From the NCBI RefSeq assembly GCF_056746865.1, contig NZ_CM163382.1: 64,000 nucleotides of DNA; one strand, 5' to 3'. How positions within the stretch are numbered: the stretch's first letter is position 1; each line of letters starts with the position of its first letter. The notes below the pieces were generated by a model. It did not search any database, was not told the DNA's origin, and was given only the letters and a program-made list of their open reading frames with translations. A program made the translations under genes and the position numbers. Positions 4,135-53,162 of this stretch are shown here, one piece after another.

Positions 4135-4539
4135 ATGAAAACGGTCATCACCTTCGGCACCTTTGATGTGTTTCACGTCGGTCATCTGCGCCTTTTACAA
4201 CGCGCCCGCAAGCTGGGCGAGCGGCTGCTGGTCGGCGTATCGTCCGACGCCCTGAACATCGCCAAAAAGGGCAGGGCACCGGTTTACCATCAGGATGACC
4301 GCATGGCGATTATCGCCGGTCTGGCGTGCGTGGATGGCGTTTTTCTGGAGGAATCGCTGGAGCAGAAAGCGGAGTATTTGCGGGGGTACGGTGCGGATAT
4401 TTTGGTGATGGGCGATGACTGGGCGGGGAAGTTTGACGATTTCTCGTGTGTCTGTGAGGTGGTCTATTTTCCCCGTACGCCATCGGTATCGACGACGGGG
4501 ATCATTGAGGTGATTAGGGGTAAATCAGCCACCTACTGA
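4135..4539 (+). CDS. Glycerol-3-phosphate cytidylyltransferase-like protein (TagD family; predicted to make CDP-glycerol)
   Basis: 134 aa with an N-terminal GTFDVFHVGHLRLL motif, the HxGH signature of the cytidylyltransferase fold. It starts 3 nt after the lfiJ stop, so it is probably co-transcribed with the flagellar operon. Confidence 0.75.
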   Translation: MKTVITFGTFDVFHVGHLRLLQRARKLGERLLVGVSSDALNIAKKGRAPVYHQDDRMAIIAGLACVDGVFLEESLEQKAEYLRGYGADILVMGDDWAGKFDDFSCVCEVVYFPRTPSVSTTGIIEVIRGKSATY

Positions 4540-4594
4540 TTTAATTCCCGCGGTGAGAGAAGATGATGCCGTCTGCCGTTTGGCTATGTTAAAT

Positions 4595-4690
4595 ATGTTT
4601 AAAAAATCGCGTTTTTTCGACATATCCCCAAAACATGTCGATGGCATAAACGTATTCCAACGACATGTTTAAAAATCGCATTTTATCGAC
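4595..4690. repeat. Direct ~32-bp repeats and CGACAT/ATGTCG inverted repeats in a convergent intergenic region
   Basis: GTTTAAAAAATCGCGTTTTTTCGACATATCCC at about 4597 and GTTTAAAAATCGCATTTTATCGACATATCCC at about 4658, with AACATGTCG...CGACATGTT between them. Confidence 0.6.
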
Positions 4691-7154
4691 ATATCCCTGA
4701 CGATTCCTTGCCCGCCAGCGCCTCCACAATCACCATCGCCGCCCGTTCTCCCGCCTTGCCATCCATAAACGCATCGCAATAGTGATGACGAATCTCCTTA
4801 AGCCGCGCCAGCAACGCACCCCAGTCAAACGCCTCTGACAACAAATAACGCAGTTCCGCAACATCATGAGCCACCGGCAATATTTCGCGGATTTGCTGGT
4901 CGGCGCTTTCGGGCGTGGAGTAACTTTTCTCACCGTCGAGCAACGCTGCCATTTCCGGAAAGTCGAGCAGGATTACCCGCTTATCAACGTGGATAGCATC
5001 GAAAATAAAGCCGCTGTTATCGGTCAGCACGTAATCGGCCTTTGCCAGTAGCGCCAGCGTGTGGTGGACGGAGTCGGTGCGCTGTTTTAAGTGCCTGCGC
5101 GCCAGGGCCAGCGATGCAGCTTCTTCCGGGCGCGAGCAGGTGCCGTGGTGCAGTTTGCAAATCAGATTCACATTGCCACTTAAGCGCCCCAATTTTTCTG
5201 CCCAGTGGGGCAGGGAGCTTAATGCGCCAAACGTGGGGGCGTAGAGCACCGTAGGTTTACGGGAATCGGGTTGAATATTTTCTGGCAGAATGCGGTCAAA
5301 CGTGCCGTTATGCCAGGCGTCGAAGCGCGGGTTGCCGACTGCTTTTGCATTGCCGAAATGCGCCAGCGCCCGCTGGCTGTAGTGGCTGTAACACAAAATG
5401 CGTTGATAAAAACGGTTCCAGTCGGCGTGGTTCCACGTCTCTTTGGCTAAGCCATACATGGCGCGAACGTTCACCGCTGCCAGGCCATTGAGCGCGGGCG
5501 TGTGGTAGGGGCTGACCAGGCATTTCACCCGCTGACCGTGTGCCTGCATTTCAGATAAGCGCATTCCTTTGAGCTGCGGATCGTCGATGCTTTTTAGCGT
5601 CTCCAGCATTTCATCCAGAAACGGTTTAAACACGCGGTCGTTGATCACCAGCGTGCAGCCTTGCCCCTGCGCCTGTAGGGCGGTGATGATTGGGCGGTAG
5701 AGCGCGTAATGGAAAGAAGTTTCCATAAAAAAGCCGATGGTGTCGGCGATGGGTAACGCGGATGGCTTTGTGATAGCAGGTAACTTATTGAAATAGTGAG
5801 CAATATTATCAGTCATTTTTTTCTCGATATCGCTAAAGCCTGGTCGCTGATAACTAAGGCTCGGGTAACAGGCCAGCCATTTGTCGGCGCGTAGCAGCGG
5901 CTGCCAGCCGTCTTCCAGCGAATGCTCATCGTTGCTCATCTGCTGCGCCAGTTGCGGGTAGTAGCGGCGGTTCACCAGATAAGCGCATACCTTGCGGCAG
6001 TCCCGCGCGTGCACCAGCCCCGGCAAACTTTTTAGCATCGTTCCCTGCGAAATTTCGCCGCCGAGGATCATCACCTGCCAGGGAATTTTCGCCAGGCTCG
6101 CCAGCAGCGTGTTCAGCACCTGAATATGTTTCTCCTGCTTGAGAATAACCGCGTCATCTTCCAGCAGCAGATAGTTTTGCCAGCCGTGCTGTTGCGCCAG
6201 GCGCAGCGCCTGCAAGTGCGACTGACGTCGTCCCCGTTGGCCGTTTTGATCTTCACTGGCGGCAAGGCGGGTGATCTTCTCAGGTGGAATATGCAGCAAT
6301 GCCAGTTCTTCACGGATCTGTTGTAAGCGATCCGGGCGTTTATCCAGATTCACAACAACTACCTGATCGATCGTCTGATGGTTGATCCCTTGGTGATGAG
6401 TGGCGTTATGTAGACTCAGATAAGCATTGCGCAGCAGCGGATCGCTGACGATATCTGTAAGCGCCGCGTTTACAGGCGTGCTGGCCCCGAGAATAAAGTC
6501 TTTATCAAAGGTGTTGTGGCTGTGCGAGATACACAGAATCGTGCGCTCGCCGGGCAGTTGTAGCGGGTTAACGCTGAAATTGTCGGTGAAACTTTTCTCT
6601 TCGCCTAAATTGCAATCATCGTCGTAACGGTGCTTTTTCAGGTAGTTACGGTGATAGCAAAAGGTGCCGTTGAGGATGTTATGTGGGCCAAAGCTGCGGC
6701 TTTGAAAGATGCGATTGATGTGGCTGTACCAGATGGGGATCTGGTCGGAGCCGGAGATGAGCGCCCGGTGTTTTTGCATCTTGGCGATGGTCCAGGAGAT
6801 TTTATCTGCCGGGTAGTAGTCGTCATCGTCCATGCAGAGGATGTATTCGCCGCGCGCCAGTTCGTTGAGCATATTGCGTTTTTTGCCCAGCGGCAGTTTT
6901 TCCGGGTGATGAATATAGCGGATGTTAAAGGCTTCCGGCGTGCCATTGGTCAGGCGGTCGATGATGTGTTGATGGCTTTGCGGGGAATCGTCGAGGATGA
7001 TGAGTTCGCGGCGGTCTGCCGGGTAGTCCTGATAGCGGTACATATAAAGCAGGTACGGCAGGAATGCGCTGCGGTTCCAGGTTGGCGTGACGACGCTGAT
7101 GAACGGTTTTTCGCGCTGGGTGGCGAGTGTTTTGATAATGGTTGGTGTTGGCAT
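4683..7154 (-). CDS. Multidomain glycosyltransferase: N-terminal GT2-like, central GT25-like, C-terminal CDP-glycerol glycerophosphotransferase (TagB/TagF)-like
   Basis: The ORF track gives 4683..7226, but its first 24 codons translate the repeat element, so the ATG at 7154 (MPTPTIIK) is the probable start. GT2-like motifs: VVTPTWNRS and LCMDDDDYY (DxD). GT25-like segment: VVVNLDKRPDRL...LLEDDAVI. TagF-like C-terminus: ADYVLTDNSGFIFDAIHVDKRVILLD. Confidence 0.8.
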   Translation of the reverse strand: MPTPTIIKTLATQREKPFISVVTPTWNRSAFLPYLLYMYRYQDYPADRRELIILDDSPQSHQHIIDRLTNGTPEAFNIRYIHHPEKLPLGKKRNMLNELARGEYILCMDDDDYYPADKISWTIAKMQKHRALISGSDQIPIWYSHINRIFQSRSFGPHNILNGTFCYHRNYLKKHRYDDDCNLGEEKSFTDNFSVNPLQLPGERTILCISHSHNTFDKDFILGASTPVNAALTDIVSDPLLRNAYLSLHNATHHQGINHQTIDQVVVVNLDKRPDRLQQIREELALLHIPPEKITRLAASEDQNGQRGRRQSHLQALRLAQQHGWQNYLLLEDDAVILKQEKHIQVLNTLLASLAKIPWQVMILGGEISQGTMLKSLPGLVHARDCRKVCAYLVNRRYYPQLAQQMSNDEHSLEDGWQPLLRADKWLACYPSLSYQRPGFSDIEKKMTDNIAHYFNKLPAITKPSALPIADTIGFFMETSFHYALYRPIITALQAQGQGCTLVINDRVFKPFLDEMLETLKSIDDPQLKGMRLSEMQAHGQRVKCLVSPYHTPALNGLAAVNVRAMYGLAKETWNHADWNRFYQRILCYSHYSQRALAHFGNAKAVGNPRFDAWHNGTFDRILPENIQPDSRKPTVLYAPTFGALSSLPHWAEKLGRLSGNVNLICKLHHGTCSRPEEAASLALARRHLKQRTDSVHHTLALLAKADYVLTDNSGFIFDAIHVDKRVILLDFPEMAALLDGEKSYSTPESADQQIREILPVAHDVAELRYLLSEAFDWGALLARLKEIRHHYCDAFMDGKAGERAAMVIVEALAGKESSGICR

Positions 7155-7198
7155 GGTGTTTGGGTGAGTTAATGGGTGAATGTGATGAATGTGCGTGC

Positions 7199-7313
7199 TG
7201 ATGCCCTCACCCCGACCCTCTCCCACAGGGAGAGGGAGAAAACCAGCGCTGATTTTAACACCGTGCTCGATCGGTTCCCTCGCCCCTTTGGGGAGAGGGG
7301 TAGGGGGAGGGGA
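7199..7313. repeat. G/C-rich nested-palindrome repeat element, copy 1
   Basis: CCCTCACCCCGACCCTCTCCCACAGGGAGAGGG ... CCCCTTTGGGGAGAGGGGTAGGGGGAGGGG, with the same architecture and flanks (GTGCGnnCTGATG) as the copy at 14561..14685. Confidence 0.7.
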
Positions 7314-7332
7314 AAAGCGCGCACAGAGCGAC

Positions 7333-8301
7333 TCACGTCAGCAGCGAAAACGCTGAAAGCAGCGGCTCTGCCGCACATAACGACTGAATTTGCTGGCGAA
7401 TCGACGCAGCATTTTCACTCTCTCGCCAGCGTTCAAACACCGCAAAAAGGGCGAAAATATCCTCCTGTCGCAGCGGTGAACCATCCAGCGTCCATAAACT
7501 GATTAACGTGCGGATAAGATAAAAATCGCACACCAGCGGGCAATAATCTGCTCCGTCTGCCTGCCCAATCACCTCATGGTAAACGCGGTAAATCAGCCAG
7601 TTACGCATCATCCAGGGCGCGGTAGCAAAATGCTGTTGCCAGGTGGTTTGCCACTGTGCCTGAAGCTGATGTTGTAACAGGGCTTCGCTGTTGGCGTCAT
7701 GTAGCGCCAGCAAAGGCATCTGCAACGGCAGCGAAGTTTTGCGCGGGCTTTCCGGCAAAATCGACCAGTCAAACGCACAACTGCCGAGCAGCGTCATCAA
7801 CTGGCGCGCCAGTTGTGGCACGGGCGGCAACTGGGCGAACTGTGCCTGTAGCGTGCCTTTTTTCGCATGATCGGCCAGCGCCTGCGGCAGCGTCGTCAAA
7901 CGGGCAAGAATATCTCCGTCTCTGCCCGGCATTTTACTGGCGCGGGAGAGTAAAATCCCGATGGCATACAGGGAAAGCTCTGGGGTTAAATCGGGGAGCG
8001 TGAGGGTACTCAAAATCACCTGGTTTACTATCGCATCGCGCGCGGAAAGCTCTGCGGCATTTTCTTCCACAGGACGGTAGGTGAGCTGTAAATCAAAGGC
8101 CCTGGCATCGTTGAGTACCGCTTCGCAGCTGGCTGGCTCTGTCAGCATCAGGCTCTGGCGAATCTCGTTTTTCCACACCTTGCGGATGTACAAAGGCGAA
8201 TCGGGATATTGCGTCATAAAATTGCGCACGTATTCCGGTTCGTAACATTCAATAAAACTCATAGGTGGCTTCCAGTCTTTATTACTTTGCGGAATATGCA
8301 A
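7333..8301 (-). CDS. Hypothetical protein (322 aa) at the end of the lfgA-lfgM-lfgN gene string
   Basis: Long ORF co-oriented with lfgN and ending just upstream of the glycosyltransferase gene. I recognise no motif. Confidence 0.5.
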   Translation of the reverse strand: MHIPQSNKDWKPPMSFIECYEPEYVRNFMTQYPDSPLYIRKVWKNEIRQSLMLTEPASCEAVLNDARAFDLQLTYRPVEENAAELSARDAIVNQVILSTLTLPDLTPELSLYAIGILLSRASKMPGRDGDILARLTTLPQALADHAKKGTLQAQFAQLPPVPQLARQLMTLLGSCAFDWSILPESPRKTSLPLQMPLLALHDANSEALLQHQLQAQWQTTWQQHFATAPWMMRNWLIYRVYHEVIGQADGADYCPLVCDFYLIRTLISLWTLDGSPLRQEDIFALFAVFERWRESENAASIRQQIQSLCAAEPLLSAFSLLT

Positions 8302-15409: not shown

Positions 15410-16524
15410 TGCCGGAGAGTGCAATGCAAAACTGGATAAAGGCCGCAGCGATCGCTGTAAGCCTGGCGCTGCCCGGCGTGGCGCTGGCGCAATCGCTGGA
15501 GTCGCTGGTCAACGTACAGGGCGTGCGTGAAAACCAACTGGTCGGCTACAGCCTGGTGGTCGGCCTCGACGGCACGGGTGATAAAAACCAGGTCAAATTC
15601 ACCAACCAGACCATCACCAATATGCTGCGCCAGTTTGGCGTGCAGCTGCCGAATAAAATCGACCCGAAGGTGAAAAACGTCGCGGCGGTGGCGGTGAGCG
15701 CCACGCTGCCGCCGATGTACTCGCGCGGGCAGACCATTGACGTCACCGTTTCGTCGATTGGCGATGCCAAAAGTATTCGCGGCGGCACTTTATTGCTTAC
15801 GCAGCTGCACGGCGCAGATGGCGAAGTGTATGCCCTGGCGCAGGGAAGTGTGGTGGTGGGCGGGATGAATGCCACCGGGGCCAGCGGTTCCAGCGTGACG
15901 GTTAACACACCGACCGCCGGGTTAATTCCCAACGGCGCGACGGTGGAGCGTGAGATCCCCAGCGATTTTCAGATGGGCGACACCATCACCCTCAACCTGA
16001 AACGCCCGTCGTTTAAAGATGCCAACAATATTGCGGCGGCGATCAACGCTTCGTTTGGCGGCATCGCCACCGCGCAGAGTTCCACCAACGTTACCGTGCG
16101 CGCGCCCACCAGCCCCGGCGCGCGGGTGGCGTTTATGTCGCAACTGGATGATGTACAGGTGCAGGCAGAGAAAATCCGCGCCCGCGTGGTGTTTAACTCG
16201 CGCACTGGCACGGTGGTAATGGGCGATGGCGTTGCGCTGCACGCGGCGGCGGTGTCGCACGGCAGTTTGACCGTCTCGATTAACGAAACCAGCAACGTCA
16301 GCCAGCCGAATGCCTTTGCGGGCGGGCGCACGGCGGTAACGCCGCAGAGCAATATCGCGGTGAATCACGCCCGTCCGGGGGTGGTGAGTTTGCCGGAGTC
16401 GAGCAGCCTGAAAACGTTGGTTAATGCGTTGAACAGTTTAGGCGCGACGCCGGATGACATTATGTCGATTTTGCAGGCGCTGCATGAAGCGGGCGCGCTG
16501 GATGCCGACCTGGAGGTGATCTGA
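15409..16524 (+). CDS. lfgI: Flagellar P-ring protein FlgI
   Basis: 371 aa with a signal peptide ([17 protein letters not shown]). Confidence 0.9.
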
Positions 16525-16823
16525 TGAAAGTTAACGGCAGCGGCGGGATTGATGGCAGCGACGCATTAATGGGGCCGAAGGTTCAGGCCAATGATATCAA
16601 GCAGGCTGCGGAACAGTTTGAGGCGATTTTTTTACGCAACATGTTGAAAGAGATGCGTAAAACCAACGAGTTGTTCGATTCGAAAGATAACCCGTTTAAC
16701 AGCGATTCGGTGCGCATGATGCAGGGGTTTTATGACGATGAGTTGTGTAACACCCTGGCGCAGCAGCACGGGATTGGGATTGCGGCGATGATTGTGAAGC
16801 AGTTGTCGCCGAAGCATAAATGA
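16524..16823 (+). CDS. lfgJ: FlgJ-like rod-assembly protein, N-terminal rod-binding domain only
   Basis: 99 aa in the flgJ position between flgI and flgK. It is too short to carry the C-terminal muramidase domain of enterobacterial FlgJ. Confidence 0.65.
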   Translation: MKVNGSGGIDGSDALMGPKVQANDIKQAAEQFEAIFLRNMLKEMRKTNELFDSKDNPFNSDSVRMMQGFYDDELCNTLAQQHGIGIAAMIVKQLSPKHK

Positions 16824-16837
16824 GGCTCCGACGTTCG

Positions 16838-16925
16838 GTGCCTGATGCGACGCTGGCGCGTCTTATCAGGCCTACGAGTCGCCCGTATGTAGGCCGGATA
16901 AGGCGTTCACGCCGCATCCGGCACC
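16838..16925. repeat. REP/BIME palindromic units
   Basis: GCCTGATGCGACGC...CTTATCAGGCCTAC and GTAGGCCGGATAAGGCGTTCACGCCGCATCCGGCA in the flgJ-flgK intergenic region. Confidence 0.85.
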
Positions 16926-16998
16926 CGGTTTACGGAACTTAAGAATCCCCAACCTAACGCCGCTTTTAACCGGCACGATTTACCGGTAAGGATCCAAC

Positions 16999-18375
16999 AT
17001 GGACATGATTAACATCGGCTACAGCGGCGCATCAACCGCGCAGGTGGAGCTGAACGTCACGGCGCAAAACACCGCCAACACCATGACCACGGGCTACACC
17101 CGTCAGGTGGCGGAGATCAGCACCATCGGTGCCAGCGGCGGTTCGCCGAACAGCGCCGGTAACGGCGTGCAGGTCGATAGCATTCGCCGCGTCTCCAACC
17201 AGTATCAGGTGAATCAGGTGTGGTATGCCGCCAGCGATTACGGCTATTACAGCACCCAGCAAGGGTATCTCACGCAACTGGAAGCGGTACTGAGCGACGA
17301 TAACAGCAGCCTGAGCGGCGGCTTCGATAACTTTTTCGCCGCCCTTAACGAAGCGACCACCAGCCCCGATGATTCCGCCCTGCGCGAGCAGGTGATCAGC
17401 GAAGCCGGGGCGCTGTCGCTGCGTATCGACAACACGCTGGATTACATCGACTCGCAAAGCACGGAAATCATCAGCCAGCAGCAGGCGATGGTGTCGCAAA
17501 TTAATACGCTCACCAGCGGTATCGCCAGCTATAACCAGCAAATCGCTCAGGCCGAAGCCAACGGCGATAACGCCTCCGCGCTGTACGACGCCCGCGACCA
17601 GATGGTGGAAGAACTCAGCGGGATGATGGATGTGCAGGTCAATATCGACGACCAGGGCAACTACAACGTTACCCTGAAAAACGGTCAACCGCTGGTGAGC
17701 GGGCAGCAAAGCTCGACCATCGCGCTGGAAACCAACGCCGACGGCACGCCGACCATGTCGCTGACCTTCGCCGGAACCACCTCGACGATGACCACCGACA
17801 CTGGAGGTTCATTAGGCGCACTGTTTGATTATCAAAACGACGTGCTGACGCCGCTGACCGACACCATCAACAGCATGGCGTCGCAGTTTGCCGATGCGGT
17901 CAACAATCAACTGGCGCAGGGCTACGATCTCAACGGCAACCCCGGCGAGCCGCTGTTTATTTATGACGCCAGCAACGCCGATGGCCCGCTGACCGTCAAC
18001 CCGGATATCACCGCCGATGAGCTGGCGTTTTCCAGTTCACCGGACGAAAGCGGTAACAGCGACAACTTACAGGCGCTGATCAATATCTCCACCGAACCGC
18101 TGGAGATAGCCAACCTCGGCAGCGTGACGGTCGGGCAGGCGTGCTCGTCAATCATCAGCAATATCGGCATTTACAGCCAGCAAAACCAGACGGAAGTCGA
18201 TGCCGCGTCCAATGTCTATTCCGCAGCGCAAAACCAGCAGAGCAGCGTCAGCGGCGTCAGCATGGACGAAGAGGCGGTTAACCTGATCACCTATCAACAA
18301 ATTTATGAAGCCAATCTGAAAGTCATTTCCGCCGGGGCCGAGATTTTCGATTCGGTGCTGGAAATGTGCAGCTAA
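16999..18375 (+). CDS. lfgK: Flagellar hook-associated protein 1 FlgK
   Basis: 458 aa with the N-terminal rod/hook-family motif and a conserved C-terminal helix. Confidence 0.85.
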   Translation: MDMINIGYSGASTAQVELNVTAQNTANTMTTGYTRQVAEISTIGASGGSPNSAGNGVQVDSIRRVSNQYQVNQVWYAASDYGYYSTQQGYLTQLEAVLSDDNSSLSGGFDNFFAALNEATTSPDDSALREQVISEAGALSLRIDNTLDYIDSQSTEIISQQQAMVSQINTLTSGIASYNQQIAQAEANGDNASALYDARDQMVEELSGMMDVQVNIDDQGNYNVTLKNGQPLVSGQQSSTIALETNADGTPTMSLTFAGTTSTMTTDTGGSLGALFDYQNDVLTPLTDTINSMASQFADAVNNQLAQGYDLNGNPGEPLFIYDASNADGPLTVNPDITADELAFSSSPDESGNSDNLQALINISTEPLEIANLGSVTVGQACSSIISNIGIYSQQNQTEVDAASNVYSAAQNQQSSVSGVSMDEEAVNLITYQQIYEANLKVISAGAEIFDSVLEMCS

Positions 18376-19335: not shown

Positions 19336-20313
19336 ATGCAGGTCGGACTTACATCTTCGTCACTCGCCACCGGCGGCGCGCATAGCGCTGCGGTATCGTC
19401 GTCAACCGTTGCGCCCACTCAGGCGGTGCGGCAAAAACTCCCGGCGACGGCGAGTGAATATCCGGCCTCGCCGCTGATTACCACTCGCCCGCAGCGTTAC
19501 AGCGTGCAGCTTAACGACCAGCTCACCACGTTGCAGCAGGCGGATCACTATCTCGGGCAACTGGAGCAGCAGTTGCTCGATTATCGTCACAGCCAGCGCA
19601 AAGGCGGGCAGGCGCAGAGTTCGGCGCTGATGCAGATGCTGGACAAACGCACCGCGCTTTCCGGCGGTGCGGTGGACCGCCAGTTGCAGCCAGTGTTGCA
19701 GGGGGAAGCGCGGGTGACTTTTCACTCGCCGGATCTGGCGAATCTGGTACACAATCCCACGCCGGGAACGCGCATGTTCAGCGTCTCTGACGGGCGGCAG
19801 ACTCAGCTTTCGGCGGTGATGCTGTCTGAGGATGACAGCGCTGGGCAGTACCAGACGCGGCTGACCAACGCCCTGCGCCGCGTGGGCGTGCAGATGCATC
19901 AAAACGCCGATGGTATAAGTTTCTCCACCACTGAAAAACAGTGGCCCAACATTGAAAGCACCCTAAGCGTGCGCACCGATGGTGATAAATCAGCGTTTAT
20001 GCCACTAAAAACCTTTGCCGAACCGTCGCAGGCGGACCGCTTAGTGCAAAGCCTGCAACAGGGCGGAGCGGGGATTTCTCAGACGTTAGAAAGCATTAAT
20101 CAGCAGCGTGTGCAGATGGCGGTACAGCAGGAAAAGGCGCGGCAGTTGATCGACGGCATGTCGCGCTTCCCGCAAACGGAAAGCGCCGTGCAGGCGTCGG
20201 AAAATCTCGGCGGCGTGCTGGATAGCGCCAATCATAACTATCAGGTTTTATTGCAGGCGGTGAACGGTCAGGCGCGAATTTCCAGCCAGACGGTGAGGAG
20301 TTTATTGGGTTAG
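19336..20313 (+). CDS. lafW: Flag-2-specific protein of unknown function (position of lafW)
   Basis: 325 aa with a Ser/Ala/Thr-rich N-terminus, located between flgL and the regulator/flagellin genes. Function is not evident from sequence. Confidence 0.5.
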   Translation: MQVGLTSSSLATGGAHSAAVSSSTVAPTQAVRQKLPATASEYPASPLITTRPQRYSVQLNDQLTTLQQADHYLGQLEQQLLDYRHSQRKGGQAQSSALMQMLDKRTALSGGAVDRQLQPVLQGEARVTFHSPDLANLVHNPTPGTRMFSVSDGRQTQLSAVMLSEDDSAGQYQTRLTNALRRVGVQMHQNADGISFSTTEKQWPNIESTLSVRTDGDKSAFMPLKTFAEPSQADRLVQSLQQGGAGISQTLESINQQRVQMAVQQEKARQLIDGMSRFPQTESAVQASENLGGVLDSANHNYQVLLQAVNGQARISSQTVRSLLG

Positions 20314-20385: not shown

Positions 20386-20730
20386 ATGATGTGGGACGTC
20401 GAGACAACGGAGACTTTCGACAACTGGTTTGATGCCCAGACTGTTGCGCTGAAAGAAGATTTACTTGCTGCAATGCTGATTCTTGCTGAGTATGGCCCAC
20501 AGTTGGGCAGACCCTTTGCGGATACGGTTAATGATTCACAGTTTTCAAATATGAAAGAATTACGCGTCCAACATCAGGGAAACCCGGTACGTGCTTTTTT
20601 TGCTTTCGATCCTGCGCGCCGTGGCATTGTATTATGTGCGGGTGATAAAACGGGGTTAAATGAGAAAAAGTTTTATCGCGATATGATCAAGCTCGCTGAT
20701 TCTGAATACCGTAAGCATCTGAAAAAGTAA
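20386..20730 (+). CDS. Type II toxin, RelE/ParE superfamily (HigB-like 'addiction module killer' family)
   Basis: 114 aa with a C-terminal GIVLCAGDK...KKFYRDMIKLAD region reminiscent of HigB-like killer proteins. It lies 9 nt upstream of a small HTH gene, and the toxin-first order is typical of higBA. Confidence 0.7.
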   Translation: MMWDVETTETFDNWFDAQTVALKEDLLAAMLILAEYGPQLGRPFADTVNDSQFSNMKELRVQHQGNPVRAFFAFDPARRGIVLCAGDKTGLNEKKFYRDMIKLADSEYRKHLKK

Positions 20731-20739
20731 GGAACGATA

Positions 20740-21039
20740 ATGGCTACTCTAAAAGAACTGATGGCAAAGCAAAGCCCTGAAAGCCAGGTGCGTATTGCGG
20801 CAAAAGTTGAGGAAATGCGCCAGACCATCGCCTTGCATCAGCTGAGAGAAGAACTCAATATTTCGCAAACGGAAATGGCGGCAGCGATGGGCATTAAGCA
20901 ACCGACTCTTGCAAAAATGGAGCAGGCAGATAACGATCCTCGGTTGTCTACGCTAAAACGCTATGTTGCGGCTTTAGGTGGGGAATTGAGTATCGACGTT
21001 AAACTGCCGAATGGTAAGAGAATTGCATTTCAGATTTAA
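20740..21039 (+). CDS. Type II antitoxin, XRE/HigA-family helix-turn-helix protein
   Basis: 99 aa with an HTH motif (ISQTEMAAAMGIKQPTLAKME), tightly coupled to the upstream toxin gene. Confidence 0.75.
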   Translation: MATLKELMAKQSPESQVRIAAKVEEMRQTIALHQLREELNISQTEMAAAMGIKQPTLAKMEQADNDPRLSTLKRYVAALGGELSIDVKLPNGKRIAFQI

Positions 21040-21990: not shown

Positions 21991-22424
21991 AAAGCACAGT
22001 CTTATACGTCCCTGAGAAGATGATTTTTCTGCGTGATAATTAATATTTTATGGTGATAAGATTATTCTTAATCACTATATAGCGTGGAAATGTAACGAAA
22101 TGACAGGACAGGTACAATAGCCAAATGTGTACTATTTGCAACGCAATGTAAATTTTGGCATCAGTACATTGAGAACAAAACGCGATAATTGATGACAATC
22201 TTAACTATATCAAGCGTTTGATAAAGACATATTTTGATACCTGGCCATGTGGCAGATATTGCTAATAATCTTTTTATCTGAATTTAAACTCTGCTTTTTT
22301 TAGCTAAAAGTGGCATCGGATAATACGTGGCGAAAAAATTTTAACGGCGATTTTAAGTTTGCTCCTGAGGTGTCGTTTTTACAGGGTATCGAAACGAAAA
22401 CGATTAATCCCAAGGAGCAGTATC

Positions 22425-31132: not shown

Positions 31133-31531
31133 ATGCGGGTATTCAAAACAAAACTCATTCGCCTGCAACTTACAGCAGAGGAACTTGAAGCGTTAACGGC
31201 GGATTTTATTTCCTATAAGCGTGACGGTGTTTTGCCAGATATATTTGGTCGCGATGCACTCTACGACGACTCGTTTACCTGGCCATTAATCAAATTTGAG
31301 CGAGTTGCTCATATTCATCTGGCAAATTAGAATAATCCATTTCCGCCACAGTTGCGCCAATTCAGCAGAACGAATGACGAAGCGCATTTGGTATATTGTC
31401 AGGGTGCGTTTGATGAGCAAGCATGGTTGCTCATTGCCATTCTGAAACCTGAACCTCATAAACTGGCTCGAGATAACAACCAAATGCATAAAATTGGGAA
31501 AATGGCAGAAGCGTTTCGCATGCGTTTTTGA
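31133..31531 (+). pseudogene. yafO: yafO toxin gene interrupted by an in-frame amber codon at codon 66
   Basis: The frame stops at TAG (31328..31330). The same frame then stays open for 66 more codons to TGA at 31529..31531, giving the 132-codon length expected for YafO. Confidence 0.6.

Positions 31532-51903: not shown

Positions 51904-53162
<1,259 letters not shown>

What the first reader, a model, noticed from the sequence alone, without database searches (positions are those of the whole stretch)
16524..16823. FlgJ-like protein lacks a muramidase domain
The gene in the flgJ position encodes only about 99 aa, enough for the rod-capping/rod-binding domain but not for the C-terminal peptidoglycan hydrolase present in E. 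coli FlgJ. The lateral system would therefore need to recruit a separate lytic enzyme to pass the rod through the cell wall. No candidate is visible in this window.
Basis: partly seen in the sequence, partly recalled or inferred. Interest (0 to 1): 0.45.

Follow-up and report, generated by a model that had tools for sequence, protein, structure and literature searches.

The report
Scaffold-only FlgJ of E. coli Flag-2
The 99-residue gene is the rod-cap (FlgJ-like) protein of E. coli's second, lateral-type flagellar gene cluster; it really has no cell-wall-cutting domain, but this is the usual, already annotated state of this protein in lateral flagellar systems, so the finding is correct but ordinary.

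Summary
Observation confirmed. Window 16524-16823 (+) is an intact 99-aa ORF, identical to RefSeq WP_000867281.1 'rod-binding protein', the lfgJ gene of the E. coli Flag-2 (lateral flagella) locus. It lies between lfgI and lfgK and overlaps the lfgI stop codon by one base. It matches Pfam Rod-binding (PF10135, 3e-14) and aligns to residues 30-102 of K-12 FlgJ. It has no Glucosaminidase domain. Only 175 bases, a REP pair and a promoter-like motif, separate it from lfgK, so no frameshift can add a domain, and no remnant was found in the window. The short form is not decay. 26 further Enterobacterales loci carry a 99-105 aa ORF at this position, dN/dS is 0.03-0.24, and 1273 of 5426 complete E. 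coli genomes carry the gene. Lateral LfgJ of Vibrio campbellii (182 aa) and Photobacterium (173 aa) is also hydrolase-less. Plesiomonas (328 aa, with Glucosaminidase) is the exception. No wall-lytic gene was found in the locus: the two 'hypotheticals' look like a FliB-type methylase and a flagellin-like protein. Most likely LfgJ is a scaffold-only rod cap and the wall is opened by an enzyme encoded elsewhere. That enzyme is unidentified. This is a known kind of protein (single-domain FlgJ), so interest is low.

The parts
16524..16823 (+). lfgJ: 99-aa single-domain FlgJ homologue (rod-binding / rod-cap scaffold) of the Flag-2 lateral flagellar locus
   Evidence: ORF. RefSeq WP_000867281.1 'rod-binding protein'. 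Pfam PF10135 at 3e-14. 34% identity to K-12 FlgJ residues 30-102. dN/dS 0.03-0.24 against orthologues.
16524..16586 (+). Codons 1-21: poorly conserved N-terminus, predicted disordered; inferred flagellar type III export signal region
   Evidence: AF2 pLDDT is below 50 for residues 1-17 and the first helix starts at residue 22. These columns are variable in alignment A1. The export-signal role is inference.
16647..16802 (+). Codons 42-93: Pfam Rod-binding domain core. The conserved block QFEAIFLRNMLKEMRK starts earlier, at codon 31.
   Evidence: One search gives the domain limits. One search lists the invariant columns A28 Q31 F32 E33 A34 I35 F36 R38 K42 M44 R45 and others.
15424..16524 (+). 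lfgI (P-ring protein). Its TGA stop overlaps the lfgJ ATG by one base, which suggests translational coupling. GGAGG lies at 16512-16516.
   Evidence: K-12 flgI/flgJ have the same arrangement.
16840..16922 (.). Pair of REP palindromes (BIME-like) inserted in the lfgJ-lfgK spacer; non-coding
   Evidence: Inverted repeats I1-I3. Sub-threshold Rfam naRNA4 (REP-derived) matches. Absent from the 85-bp spacer of Escherichia whittamii.
16939..16968 (+). Conserved sigma-28-like motif TTAAGAA-N14-GCCGCTTTTA upstream of lfgK. It marks lfgJ as the last gene of the rod/hook operon.
   Evidence: The motif is kept upstream of lfgK in Citrobacter, Leminorella, Pseudescherichia and Rouxiella although spacer lengths range from 66 to 210 bp. 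A related motif lies upstream of lafA. Promoter function is inferred.
16999..18375 (+). lfgK (hook-associated protein 1), the next gene. It bounds the space available downstream of lfgJ.

Best explanation
The ORF is lfgJ, the FlgJ orthologue of the E. coli Flag-2 (lateral-type) flagellar system. It is a scaffold-only protein. Its disordered N-terminus would direct export through the Flag-2 type III apparatus. Its helical rod-binding domain would sit on the growing LfgB/C/F/G rod as cap or assembly chaperone, as the N-terminal half of Salmonella FlgJ does. It has no catalytic domain, and within the Enterobacterales and Vibrionaceae lateral lineage sampled here it shows no sign of having recently lost one. 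The hole in the peptidoglycan must therefore come from an enzyme encoded outside the locus. The most likely source is one or more of E. coli's housekeeping periplasmic lytic transglycosylases. The glucosaminidase of the primary FlgJ, which co-occurs in essentially every strain, is a second possibility. Shown here: the protein's identity, its domain content, its intactness, its conservation, and the absence of any detected lytic gene in the locus. Inferred: export, capping, and the trans-acting enzyme.
For: Synteny and identity with the annotated Flag-2 locus come. The protein has a constant length of 99-106 aa in about 100 protein clusters from Escherichia, Citrobacter, Leclercia, Scandinavium, Buttiauxella, Dryocola and Pseudescherichia. 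It is 99-105 aa in 25 species loci and 100 aa in Rouxiella. Purifying selection is clear, with dN/dS 0.03-0.24. The gene is single-copy in 1273 of 5426 complete E. coli genomes, always as 'rod-binding protein'. Related lateral clusters have the same hydrolase-less state: V. campbellii 182 aa and Photobacterium 173 aa carry only PF10135. The locus has no lytic candidate. Every gene is a canonical flagellar gene except a FliB-like methylase, a GT2 glycosyltransferase and a cytidylyltransferase, a toxin-antitoxin pair and a regulator, a 103-aa protein with no supported family match, and a 325-aa protein with a flagellin-like predicted fold. Precedent exists for scaffold-only FlgJ working with a separate enzyme: R. 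sphaeroides FlgJ with SltF (PMC7277832) and Borrelia FlgJ with LTaseBb (PMC8517470). The dual-domain flgJ is present in 5425 of 5426 E. coli genomes.
Against: No partner enzyme was identified and nothing here shows an interaction. Expression of Flag-2 flagella has not been demonstrated in E. coli: no LafA and no Flag-2 motility were seen in ST131 strain EC958 (PMC4637896). Function in E. coli itself is therefore inferred from sequence conservation only. The AF2 model of LfgJ has low confidence (pLDDT 56). No solved structure of a rod-binding domain was found by sequence.
Confidence: 0.8

Rival explanations
1. The wall-cutting activity is supplied specifically by the primary-system FlgJ. Its glucosaminidase domain would act in trans, either after export through Flag-1 or by cross-export through the Flag-2 apparatus, making Flag-2 dependent on Flag-1.
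For: flgJ with an intact Glucosaminidase domain is present in 5425 of 5426 E. coli genomes, hence in essentially all 1273 lfgJ-positive ones. Vibrio species with hydrolase-less LfgJ also have a dual-domain polar FlgJ, VP0784, annotated 'rod assembly protein/muramidase' (PMC9817140).
Against: The rod-binding domains are only 34% identical, and a dedicated LfgJ is kept under selection, which argues for system-specific caps. FlgJ's enzyme domain is tethered to its own rod tip, so action at a different basal body is not expected (inference). Plesiomonas has both a polar dual-domain FlgJ and a lateral dual-domain FlgJ. No experiment bears on this.
Confidence: 0.15
2. No enzyme is recruited at all. 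The lateral rod passes through natural or growth-associated gaps in the peptidoglycan, so a lytic partner is unnecessary.
For: No lytic gene was found in the locus. From my own recollection of Hirano, Minamino and Macnab 2001 (listed as a reference, not read here), Salmonella cells making only the N-terminal part of FlgJ retain weak motility.
Against: In every system examined experimentally, a lytic activity contributes to efficient assembly: SltF, PleA, LTaseBb and the FlgJ C-domain. A rod surrounded by a P ring is wider than typical peptidoglycan pores (general knowledge).
Confidence: 0.1
3. The short ORF is a decayed remnant of a dual-domain gene in a cryptic, non-functional locus.
For: Flag-2 was not expressed in EC958 under laboratory conditions. 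The locus is absent from about 77% of E. coli genomes. REP elements sit directly behind the stop codon.
Against: The C-terminus lies at the same alignment position in 24 diverse orthologues. 26 further species loci carry 99-105 aa ORFs. dN/dS is 0.03-0.24. There is no glucosaminidase remnant. Orthologues without REP elements end at the same place. All other Flag-2 genes are annotated as intact in this strain.
Confidence: 0.03

Closest known systems
Single-domain FlgJ (PF10135 'Rod-binding' only), as in Rhodobacter sphaeroides Fla1 FlgJ, Borrelia burgdorferi FlgJ and many non-beta/gamma-proteobacteria (class defined by Nambu et al. 2006, cited in PMC8517470)
   Same: About 100 aa with only the rod-binding domain. 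Encoded between flgI and flgK in a flagellar operon. No hydrolase domain.
   Different: In R. sphaeroides a Sec-exported lytic transglycosylase, SltF, is encoded in the flgG operon and binds FlgJ (PMC7277832). In Borrelia, LTaseBb (BB0259) binds FlgJ (PMC8517470). No such gene was found in or next to the Flag-2 locus, and no partner is known.
Dual-domain FlgJ of E. coli/Salmonella Flag-1 (NCBIfam TIGR02541; b1081, 313 aa)
   Same: The N-terminal domains are homologous (34% identity over FlgJ 30-102). The gene position is the same, as is the one-base overlap with flgI.
   Different: LfgJ lacks the Pro/Glu-rich linker and the C-terminal Glucosaminidase domain (PF01832, residues 160-295 of FlgJ). 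It scores 68 bits against a family cut-off of 193.
LfgJ of lateral flagellar systems of Vibrionaceae (V. campbellii chromosome 2 locus, 182 aa; Photobacterium 'rod-binding protein', 173 aa)
   Same: The clusters are orthologous (LfgI 60% identical, same gene order) and the protein carries the rod-binding domain only.
   Different: The Vibrionaceae proteins carry an extra low-complexity tail of about 70 aa. In four of the five tails compared it ends in a conserved AF(T/Q)QPL motif. E. coli LfgJ stops right after the domain.
FlgJ_L of the Plesiomonas shigelloides lateral cluster (328 aa)
   Same: The lateral gene order is the same, LfgI is 63% identical, and the N-domain is 37% identical to E. 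coli LfgJ.
   Different: It has a C-terminal Glucosaminidase domain. Among the nine sequences compared, that domain is closest (58% identity) to the one in Plesiomonas's own polar FlgJ. It is the only dual-domain FlgJ found here in a lateral cluster.

Membership tests
FlgJ N-terminal / Rod-binding domain family (Pfam PF10135) | Profile match above Pfam's gathering score | tested here: met
   53.7 bits against a cut-off of 25.1, E 3e-14, profile positions 1-51 of 51.
FlgJ N-terminal / Rod-binding domain family (Pfam PF10135) | Gene located between the P-ring gene flgI and the hook-associated gene flgK in a flagellar operon | tested here: met
   lfgI 15424-16524, lfgJ 16524-16823, lfgK 16999-18375. 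K-12 has the same order.
FlgJ N-terminal / Rod-binding domain family (Pfam PF10135) | Binds rod proteins and caps the growing rod | not testable with these tools
   Inferred from homology to FlgJ residues 30-102. No structure is available.
Dual-domain flagellar assembly peptidoglycan hydrolase FlgJ (NCBIfam TIGR02541) | Whole-protein score above the equivalog cut-off | tested here: not met
   68.1 bits against a cut-off of 193. Only profile positions 20-91 of 294 matched.
Dual-domain flagellar assembly peptidoglycan hydrolase FlgJ (NCBIfam TIGR02541) | C-terminal Glucosaminidase (PF01832) domain with catalytic glutamates | tested here: not met
   No PF01832 match at E up to 1. No remnant in any frame of the window. 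Positive controls: K-12 FlgJ and Plesiomonas FlgJ_L both match at about 1e-34.
Single-domain FlgJ with a dedicated flagellar lytic transglycosylase (SltF / PleA / LTaseBb type) | FlgJ consists of the rod-binding domain only | tested here: met
Single-domain FlgJ with a dedicated flagellar lytic transglycosylase (SltF / PleA / LTaseBb type) | A lytic transglycosylase or other wall hydrolase encoded in the flagellar cluster | tested here: not met
   PGAP products across the whole Flag-2 locus and its flanks include none. The genes annotated as hypothetical or vaguely named were scanned against Pfam and, for four of them, NCBIfam. The 325-aa protein has a flagellin-like predicted fold. Nearby yafL (C40 peptidase) and dpaA are annotated just outside the locus boundary. 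From my own knowledge they are core genes also present in Flag-2-less K-12.
Single-domain FlgJ with a dedicated flagellar lytic transglycosylase (SltF / PleA / LTaseBb type) | Physical interaction of FlgJ with the enzyme | not testable with these tools
   Needs pull-down, two-hybrid or complex prediction.
Flag-2 / lateral flagellar system (Ren et al. 2005; De Maayer et al. 2020) | Second complete flagellar cluster with lafA flagellin, LafK-type sigma-54 activator, own sigma factor and own MotAB, inserted upstream of dinB | tested here: met
   Annotated gene set from flhA to lafU, followed by dinB. The locus is present in about 23% of complete E. coli genomes.

The most novel reading that the evidence does not exclude
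Lateral-type flagella of Enterobacterales and Vibrionaceae would form a whole clade of gamma-proteobacterial flagella that cross the cell wall without any flagellum-encoded lytic enzyme. LfgJ would directly recruit a housekeeping lytic transglycosylase, or the primary FlgJ. In Vibrionaceae the recruitment might go through the conserved C-terminal AFxQPL tail; in E. coli it would go through the bare rod-binding domain. Assembly of the second flagellar system would then depend on general cell-wall turnover enzymes. Plesiomonas would have escaped this dependence by re-fusing a glucosaminidase domain copied from its polar FlgJ.
Probability: 0.3. Interest if true: 0.45.

Novelty: already known. Interest (0 to 1): 0.2.

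Why it matters
The finding matters little as a discovery. The gene, its locus (Flag-2, described in 2005) and the class of scaffold-only FlgJ proteins (described in 2006) are all established, and RefSeq already names the protein 'rod-binding protein'. It has modest value as a pointer. Some databases and papers still label lateral LfgJ proteins 'peptidoglycan hydrolase' by annotation transfer, which is wrong for the Vibrio-type and E. coli-type proteins. The enzyme that opens the wall for lateral flagella is not addressed in any paper I could search. Finally, the contrast between Plesiomonas (fused domain) and its relatives (no domain) within one orthologous cluster offers a clean natural experiment on FlgJ domain plasticity.

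Tried and rejected
- **Frameshift or read-through extension.** Rejected. Only 175 non-coding bases follow the stop codon, and there is no glucosaminidase similarity in any frame.
- **Truncation caused by REP insertion.** Rejected. Orthologues without REP elements end at the same residue.
- **Hidden lytic enzyme among the locus 'hypotheticals'.** Rejected for the 309-aa protein, which is a FliB-like methylase, and for the 325-aa protein, which has a flagellin-like predicted fold. The 103-aa protein gave only a weak, sub-threshold FCD match.
- **Vibrionaceae LfgJ tail as a degenerate glucosaminidase.** No similarity was found.
- **Literature.** Ren et al. 2005, Nambu et al. 2006 and Stewart & McCarter 2003 are not held. 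A full-text search for 'LfgJ' returned almost only unrelated strings. De Maayer et al. 2020 does not mention FlgJ, LfgJ, muramidase or peptidoglycan.
- **Solved structures.** A PDB sequence search with the LfgJ profile found nothing.
- **AF2 model of LfgJ.** Confidence was too low (pLDDT 56) for a fold search, so none was run.
- **NJ bootstrap values.** The values were implausibly low even for obvious clades, probably a rooting artefact of the support routine. I did not use them. The grouping rests on identities and synteny.
- **Aeromonas lateral LfgJ.** I could not obtain it. The only Aeromonas record retrieved held a polar-type cluster.
- **Promoter motif scan of the window.** It gave only one meaningful site.

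Full report
**What the window is.** Window 1-38400 is 99.997% identical to the chromosome of E. coli strain 118UI (NZ_CP032515.1). The RefSeq annotation of that stretch is the Flag-2 (lateral-type) flagellar locus. On the upstream side it includes flhA, flhB, fliR, fliQ, fliP and two FliM/FliN-family switch genes, then a sigma-54 activator and fliE to fliJ. A flagellin-modification island follows, then flgN, flgM and flgA, then flgB to flgL. The last part holds lafA, fliD, fliS, fliK, fliL, a sigma factor, motA and lafU. Beyond it come dinB, yafNOP, pepD, gpt, crl, phoE and proBA. The window begins inside fliF, so the upstream quarter of the locus lies outside it. I read that part from the same genome.

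**The observation.** The ORF at 16524-16823 (+) encodes 99 aa and is RefSeq WP_000867281.1, 'rod-binding protein'. Its ATG shares one base with the TGA of the P-ring gene, and a GGAGG lies 8 bases upstream. K-12 flgI/flgJ have the same one-base overlap. Pfam finds only the Rod-binding domain, PF10135: residues 42-93, 53.7 bits against a cut-off of 25.1. In NCBIfam the best matches are short 'PRK12708' sub-models and TIGR02541 (FlgJ). All are far below their cut-offs, and TIGR02541 is matched only over its N-terminal positions 20-91 of 294.

BLASTP aligns LfgJ 22-98 to K-12 FlgJ 30-102 at 34% identity. K-12 FlgJ carries its Glucosaminidase domain at residues 160-295. LfgJ therefore ends where the rod-binding region of FlgJ ends, before the linker. 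Downstream there are only 175 bases before lfgK. They hold a pair of REP palindromes and a conserved promoter-like motif. tblastn of the FlgJ C-terminal part against the whole window found only chance matches, the best at E 0.055 inside lfgH.

**Is it a decayed gene?** No.
- Close homologues from Escherichia, Citrobacter, Leclercia, Scandinavium, Buttiauxella, Dryocola and Pseudescherichia are 99-106 aa when complete, and all carry only PF10135.
- In an alignment of 24 of them the C-termini coincide within a few residues and 24 columns are invariant.
- In 25 species-level genome loci the ORF at this position is 99-105 aa. In Rouxiella it is 100 aa.
- Nei-Gojobori dN/dS against the window allele is 0.03-0.12 where dS is below about 1.7, and at most 0.24 elsewhere.
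- The gene is single-copy in 1273 of 5426 complete E. coli genomes and is annotated 'rod-binding protein' in every record listed.

**How it compares with other lateral systems.** The P-ring protein next door gives the frame of reference. E. coli LfgI is 71.5% identical to Rouxiella Flag-2 and 62.6% to the Plesiomonas shigelloides lateral cluster. It is 59.8% identical to a locus on V. campbellii chromosome 2, which I infer to be the lateral cluster from its synteny and this identity. By contrast it is only 47.4% identical to E. coli's own primary FlgI. A neighbour-joining tree groups the Vibrio, Plesiomonas and Flag-2 proteins (I do not rely on its bootstrap values).

At the flgJ position the V. 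campbellii locus has a 182-aa ORF with only PF10135 plus a tail of about 70 residues. Its full-length relatives are 159-211 aa. They include 173-aa Photobacterium proteins named 'rod-binding protein'. The tails show no similarity to glucosaminidase domains. Four of the five compared end in a conserved AF(T/Q)QPL motif.

The Plesiomonas lateral cluster has the same gene order as Flag-2 and is the exception. Its FlgJ_L is 328 aa with Rod-binding plus Glucosaminidase. This agrees with the size given in PMC4481668. Among the nine sequences I compared, its C-domain is closest to the C-domain of Plesiomonas's own polar FlgJ (58% identity). Its N-domain is 43-49% identical to the Vibrio LfgJ N-domain. 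The simplest reading is that hydrolase-less LfgJ is the common state of this lateral clade and that Plesiomonas gained the domain. Two independent losses are not excluded, because I could not obtain Aeromonas or other lateral clusters.

**Is there a lytic candidate?** None was found in the locus. Every Flag-2 gene has a canonical flagellar annotation, with these exceptions:
- a cytidylyltransferase and an 823-aa GT2 glycosyltransferase;
- a 309-aa 'hypothetical' that matches flagellin lysine-N-methylase FliB (E 2.8e-11, below the family cut-off);
- a RelE/ParE-HTH pair and an OmpR-type regulator;
- a 103-aa protein with no supported family match;
- a 325-aa protein conserved after lfgL.

For the 325-aa protein I built an alignment from 16 loci. 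The AF2 model has pLDDT 68. It shows a disordered N-terminus (residues 1-54), long terminal helices and a central alpha/beta domain. Its best matches among solved structures are flagellins (4nx9 at E 7e-7, and eight further flagellin chains at E up to 3e-4). That points to an axial, exported flagellar protein, not an enzyme.

Just outside the locus lie yafL (C40 peptidase), dpaA and, further away, ivy. From my own knowledge these are core genes also present in Flag-2-less K-12, and none is a glycan-strand-cleaving enzyme. The rest of the window (dinB to the ecp operon) has no wall hydrolase by annotation.

**Mechanism.** Shown:
- LfgJ is an intact, conserved homologue of the FlgJ rod-binding domain.
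- It occupies the last position of the rod/hook operon.
- A conserved sigma-28-like motif, TTAAGAA-N14-GCCGCTTTTA, precedes lfgK, and a similar one precedes lafA.

Inferred:
- The variable N-terminus is predicted disordered (pLDDT below 50 for residues 1-17) and would serve as the type III export signal.
- The helical domain would cap and chaperone the lateral rod, as in FlgJ.
- Wall penetration would need an enzyme supplied in trans.

The precedents are R. sphaeroides and Borrelia. [quoted passage not shown] In Borrelia, single-domain FlgJ binds LTaseBb (PMC8517470). E. coli Flag-2 differs in having no such gene in the cluster. My preferred version is recruitment of housekeeping lytic transglycosylases. 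Use of the primary FlgJ, present in 5425 of 5426 genomes, and unaided passage are rivals that nothing here can separate.

One caveat applies. Flag-2 flagella have not been seen in E. coli: no LafA expression and no Flag-2 motility were detected in ST131 strain EC958 (PMC4637896). Function in E. coli rests on sequence conservation.

**Novelty.** The object is known. The locus was described by Ren et al. 2005 (cited; the paper is not held). The class of single-domain FlgJ proteins was described by Nambu et al. 2006 (cited; not held). The protein carries the correct descriptive name in RefSeq. No paper I could search discusses LfgJ of Flag-2 or the lytic partner of lateral flagella, so that question appears open. 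The finding itself only restates a known architecture. I rate the interest as low (0.2).

Noticed in passing
window 19336-20313 (+): A 325-aa 'hypothetical protein' is conserved directly after lfgL in Enterobacterales Flag-2 loci (44-96% identity in 25 loci, 32% in Rouxiella) and has no Pfam or NCBIfam match. The AF2 model (pLDDT 68) has a disordered N-terminus, long terminal helices and a central alpha/beta domain. Its best PDB matches are flagellins (4nx9 at E 7e-7). It may be an extra axial or junction-type protein.
   Followed up: partly
window 4135-8262: A flagellin-modification island lies between fliJ and flgN. It holds a cytidylyltransferase, an 823-aa GT2 glycosyltransferase and a 309-aa 'hypothetical' that matches flagellin lysine-N-methylase FliB (NF038110, E 2.8e-11, below the family cut-off).
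   Followed up: partly
window 20386-21039 (+): A RelE/ParE-family toxin gene and an HTH antitoxin-like gene sit inside the Flag-2 locus, between the 325-aa gene and the OmpR-type regulator.
   Followed up: no
window 16840-16922; compare L008 spacer: A REP pair (BIME-like) lies in the lfgJ-lfgK spacer, with sub-threshold Rfam naRNA4 matches. Spacer length varies from 66 to 210 bp among species. Escherichia whittamii has 85 bp and no REP. REP-like sequence also appears in the lfgF-lfgG and lfgG-lfgH spacers.
   Followed up: partly
window 16939-16968 and about 22354-22382: A conserved sigma-28-like motif, TTAAGAA-N12-14-GCCGCTTTTA, lies upstream of lfgK and is kept across genera. A related TTAAGTTT...GTCGTTTTTA lies upstream of lafA. 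These are probably late (LafS-dependent) promoters.
   Followed up: partly
L085/L086 10001-10987 (Plesiomonas shigelloides lateral cluster): This is the only lateral-type cluster seen here with a dual-domain FlgJ (328 aa). Its glucosaminidase domain is 58% identical to that of the same organism's polar FlgJ, while its N-domain is closer to Vibrio LfgJ. This suggests the domain was acquired within the genome.
   Followed up: partly
L088 9097-9645 (V. campbellii); proteins P0177, P0221, P0172: Vibrionaceae lateral LfgJ proteins carry a poorly conserved tail of about 70 aa. In four of the five tails compared it ends in a conserved AF(T/Q)QPL motif (not in P0120). The tail is absent from E. coli LfgJ. 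It could be a docking motif.
   Followed up: no
L020 (CACSKA010000002.1, 'Chryseobacterium sp. 18061'): A contig labelled Chryseobacterium carries an enterobacterial Flag-2 locus (LfgJ 80% identical to E. coli, 103 aa). The assembly is most likely mislabelled or contaminated.
   Followed up: no
L089 (Vibrio breoganii plasmid NZ_CP016179.1, 341 kb, MOBH): A mobilizable megaplasmid carries a large flagellar gene cluster. The part read here runs from flhB through flgB-flgL to fliE, fliF and a FliG-like gene. Its 154-aa rod-binding protein has the domain at the C-terminal end (residues 94-146).
   Followed up: no
window about 51905-53162; L003 14297-16247: An IS3-family ISEc31 copy interrupts the paoA region. 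paoA is annotated as a partial pseudogene in the matching genome. A second copy lies next to flhA, just upstream of the window.
   Followed up: no
window 31133-31531 (L001 37551-37949): The yafO toxin gene downstream of dinB is annotated as a pseudogene with an internal stop in the matching genome.
   Followed up: no
P0023; PMC4481668 table: Some sources label hydrolase-less lateral LfgJ proteins 'peptidoglycan hydrolase'. Examples are the truncated UniRef name of the Citrobacter rodentium orthologue and the 97-129-aa NCBIfam PRK12708 sub-models. This is annotation carried over from dual-domain FlgJ.
   Followed up: no
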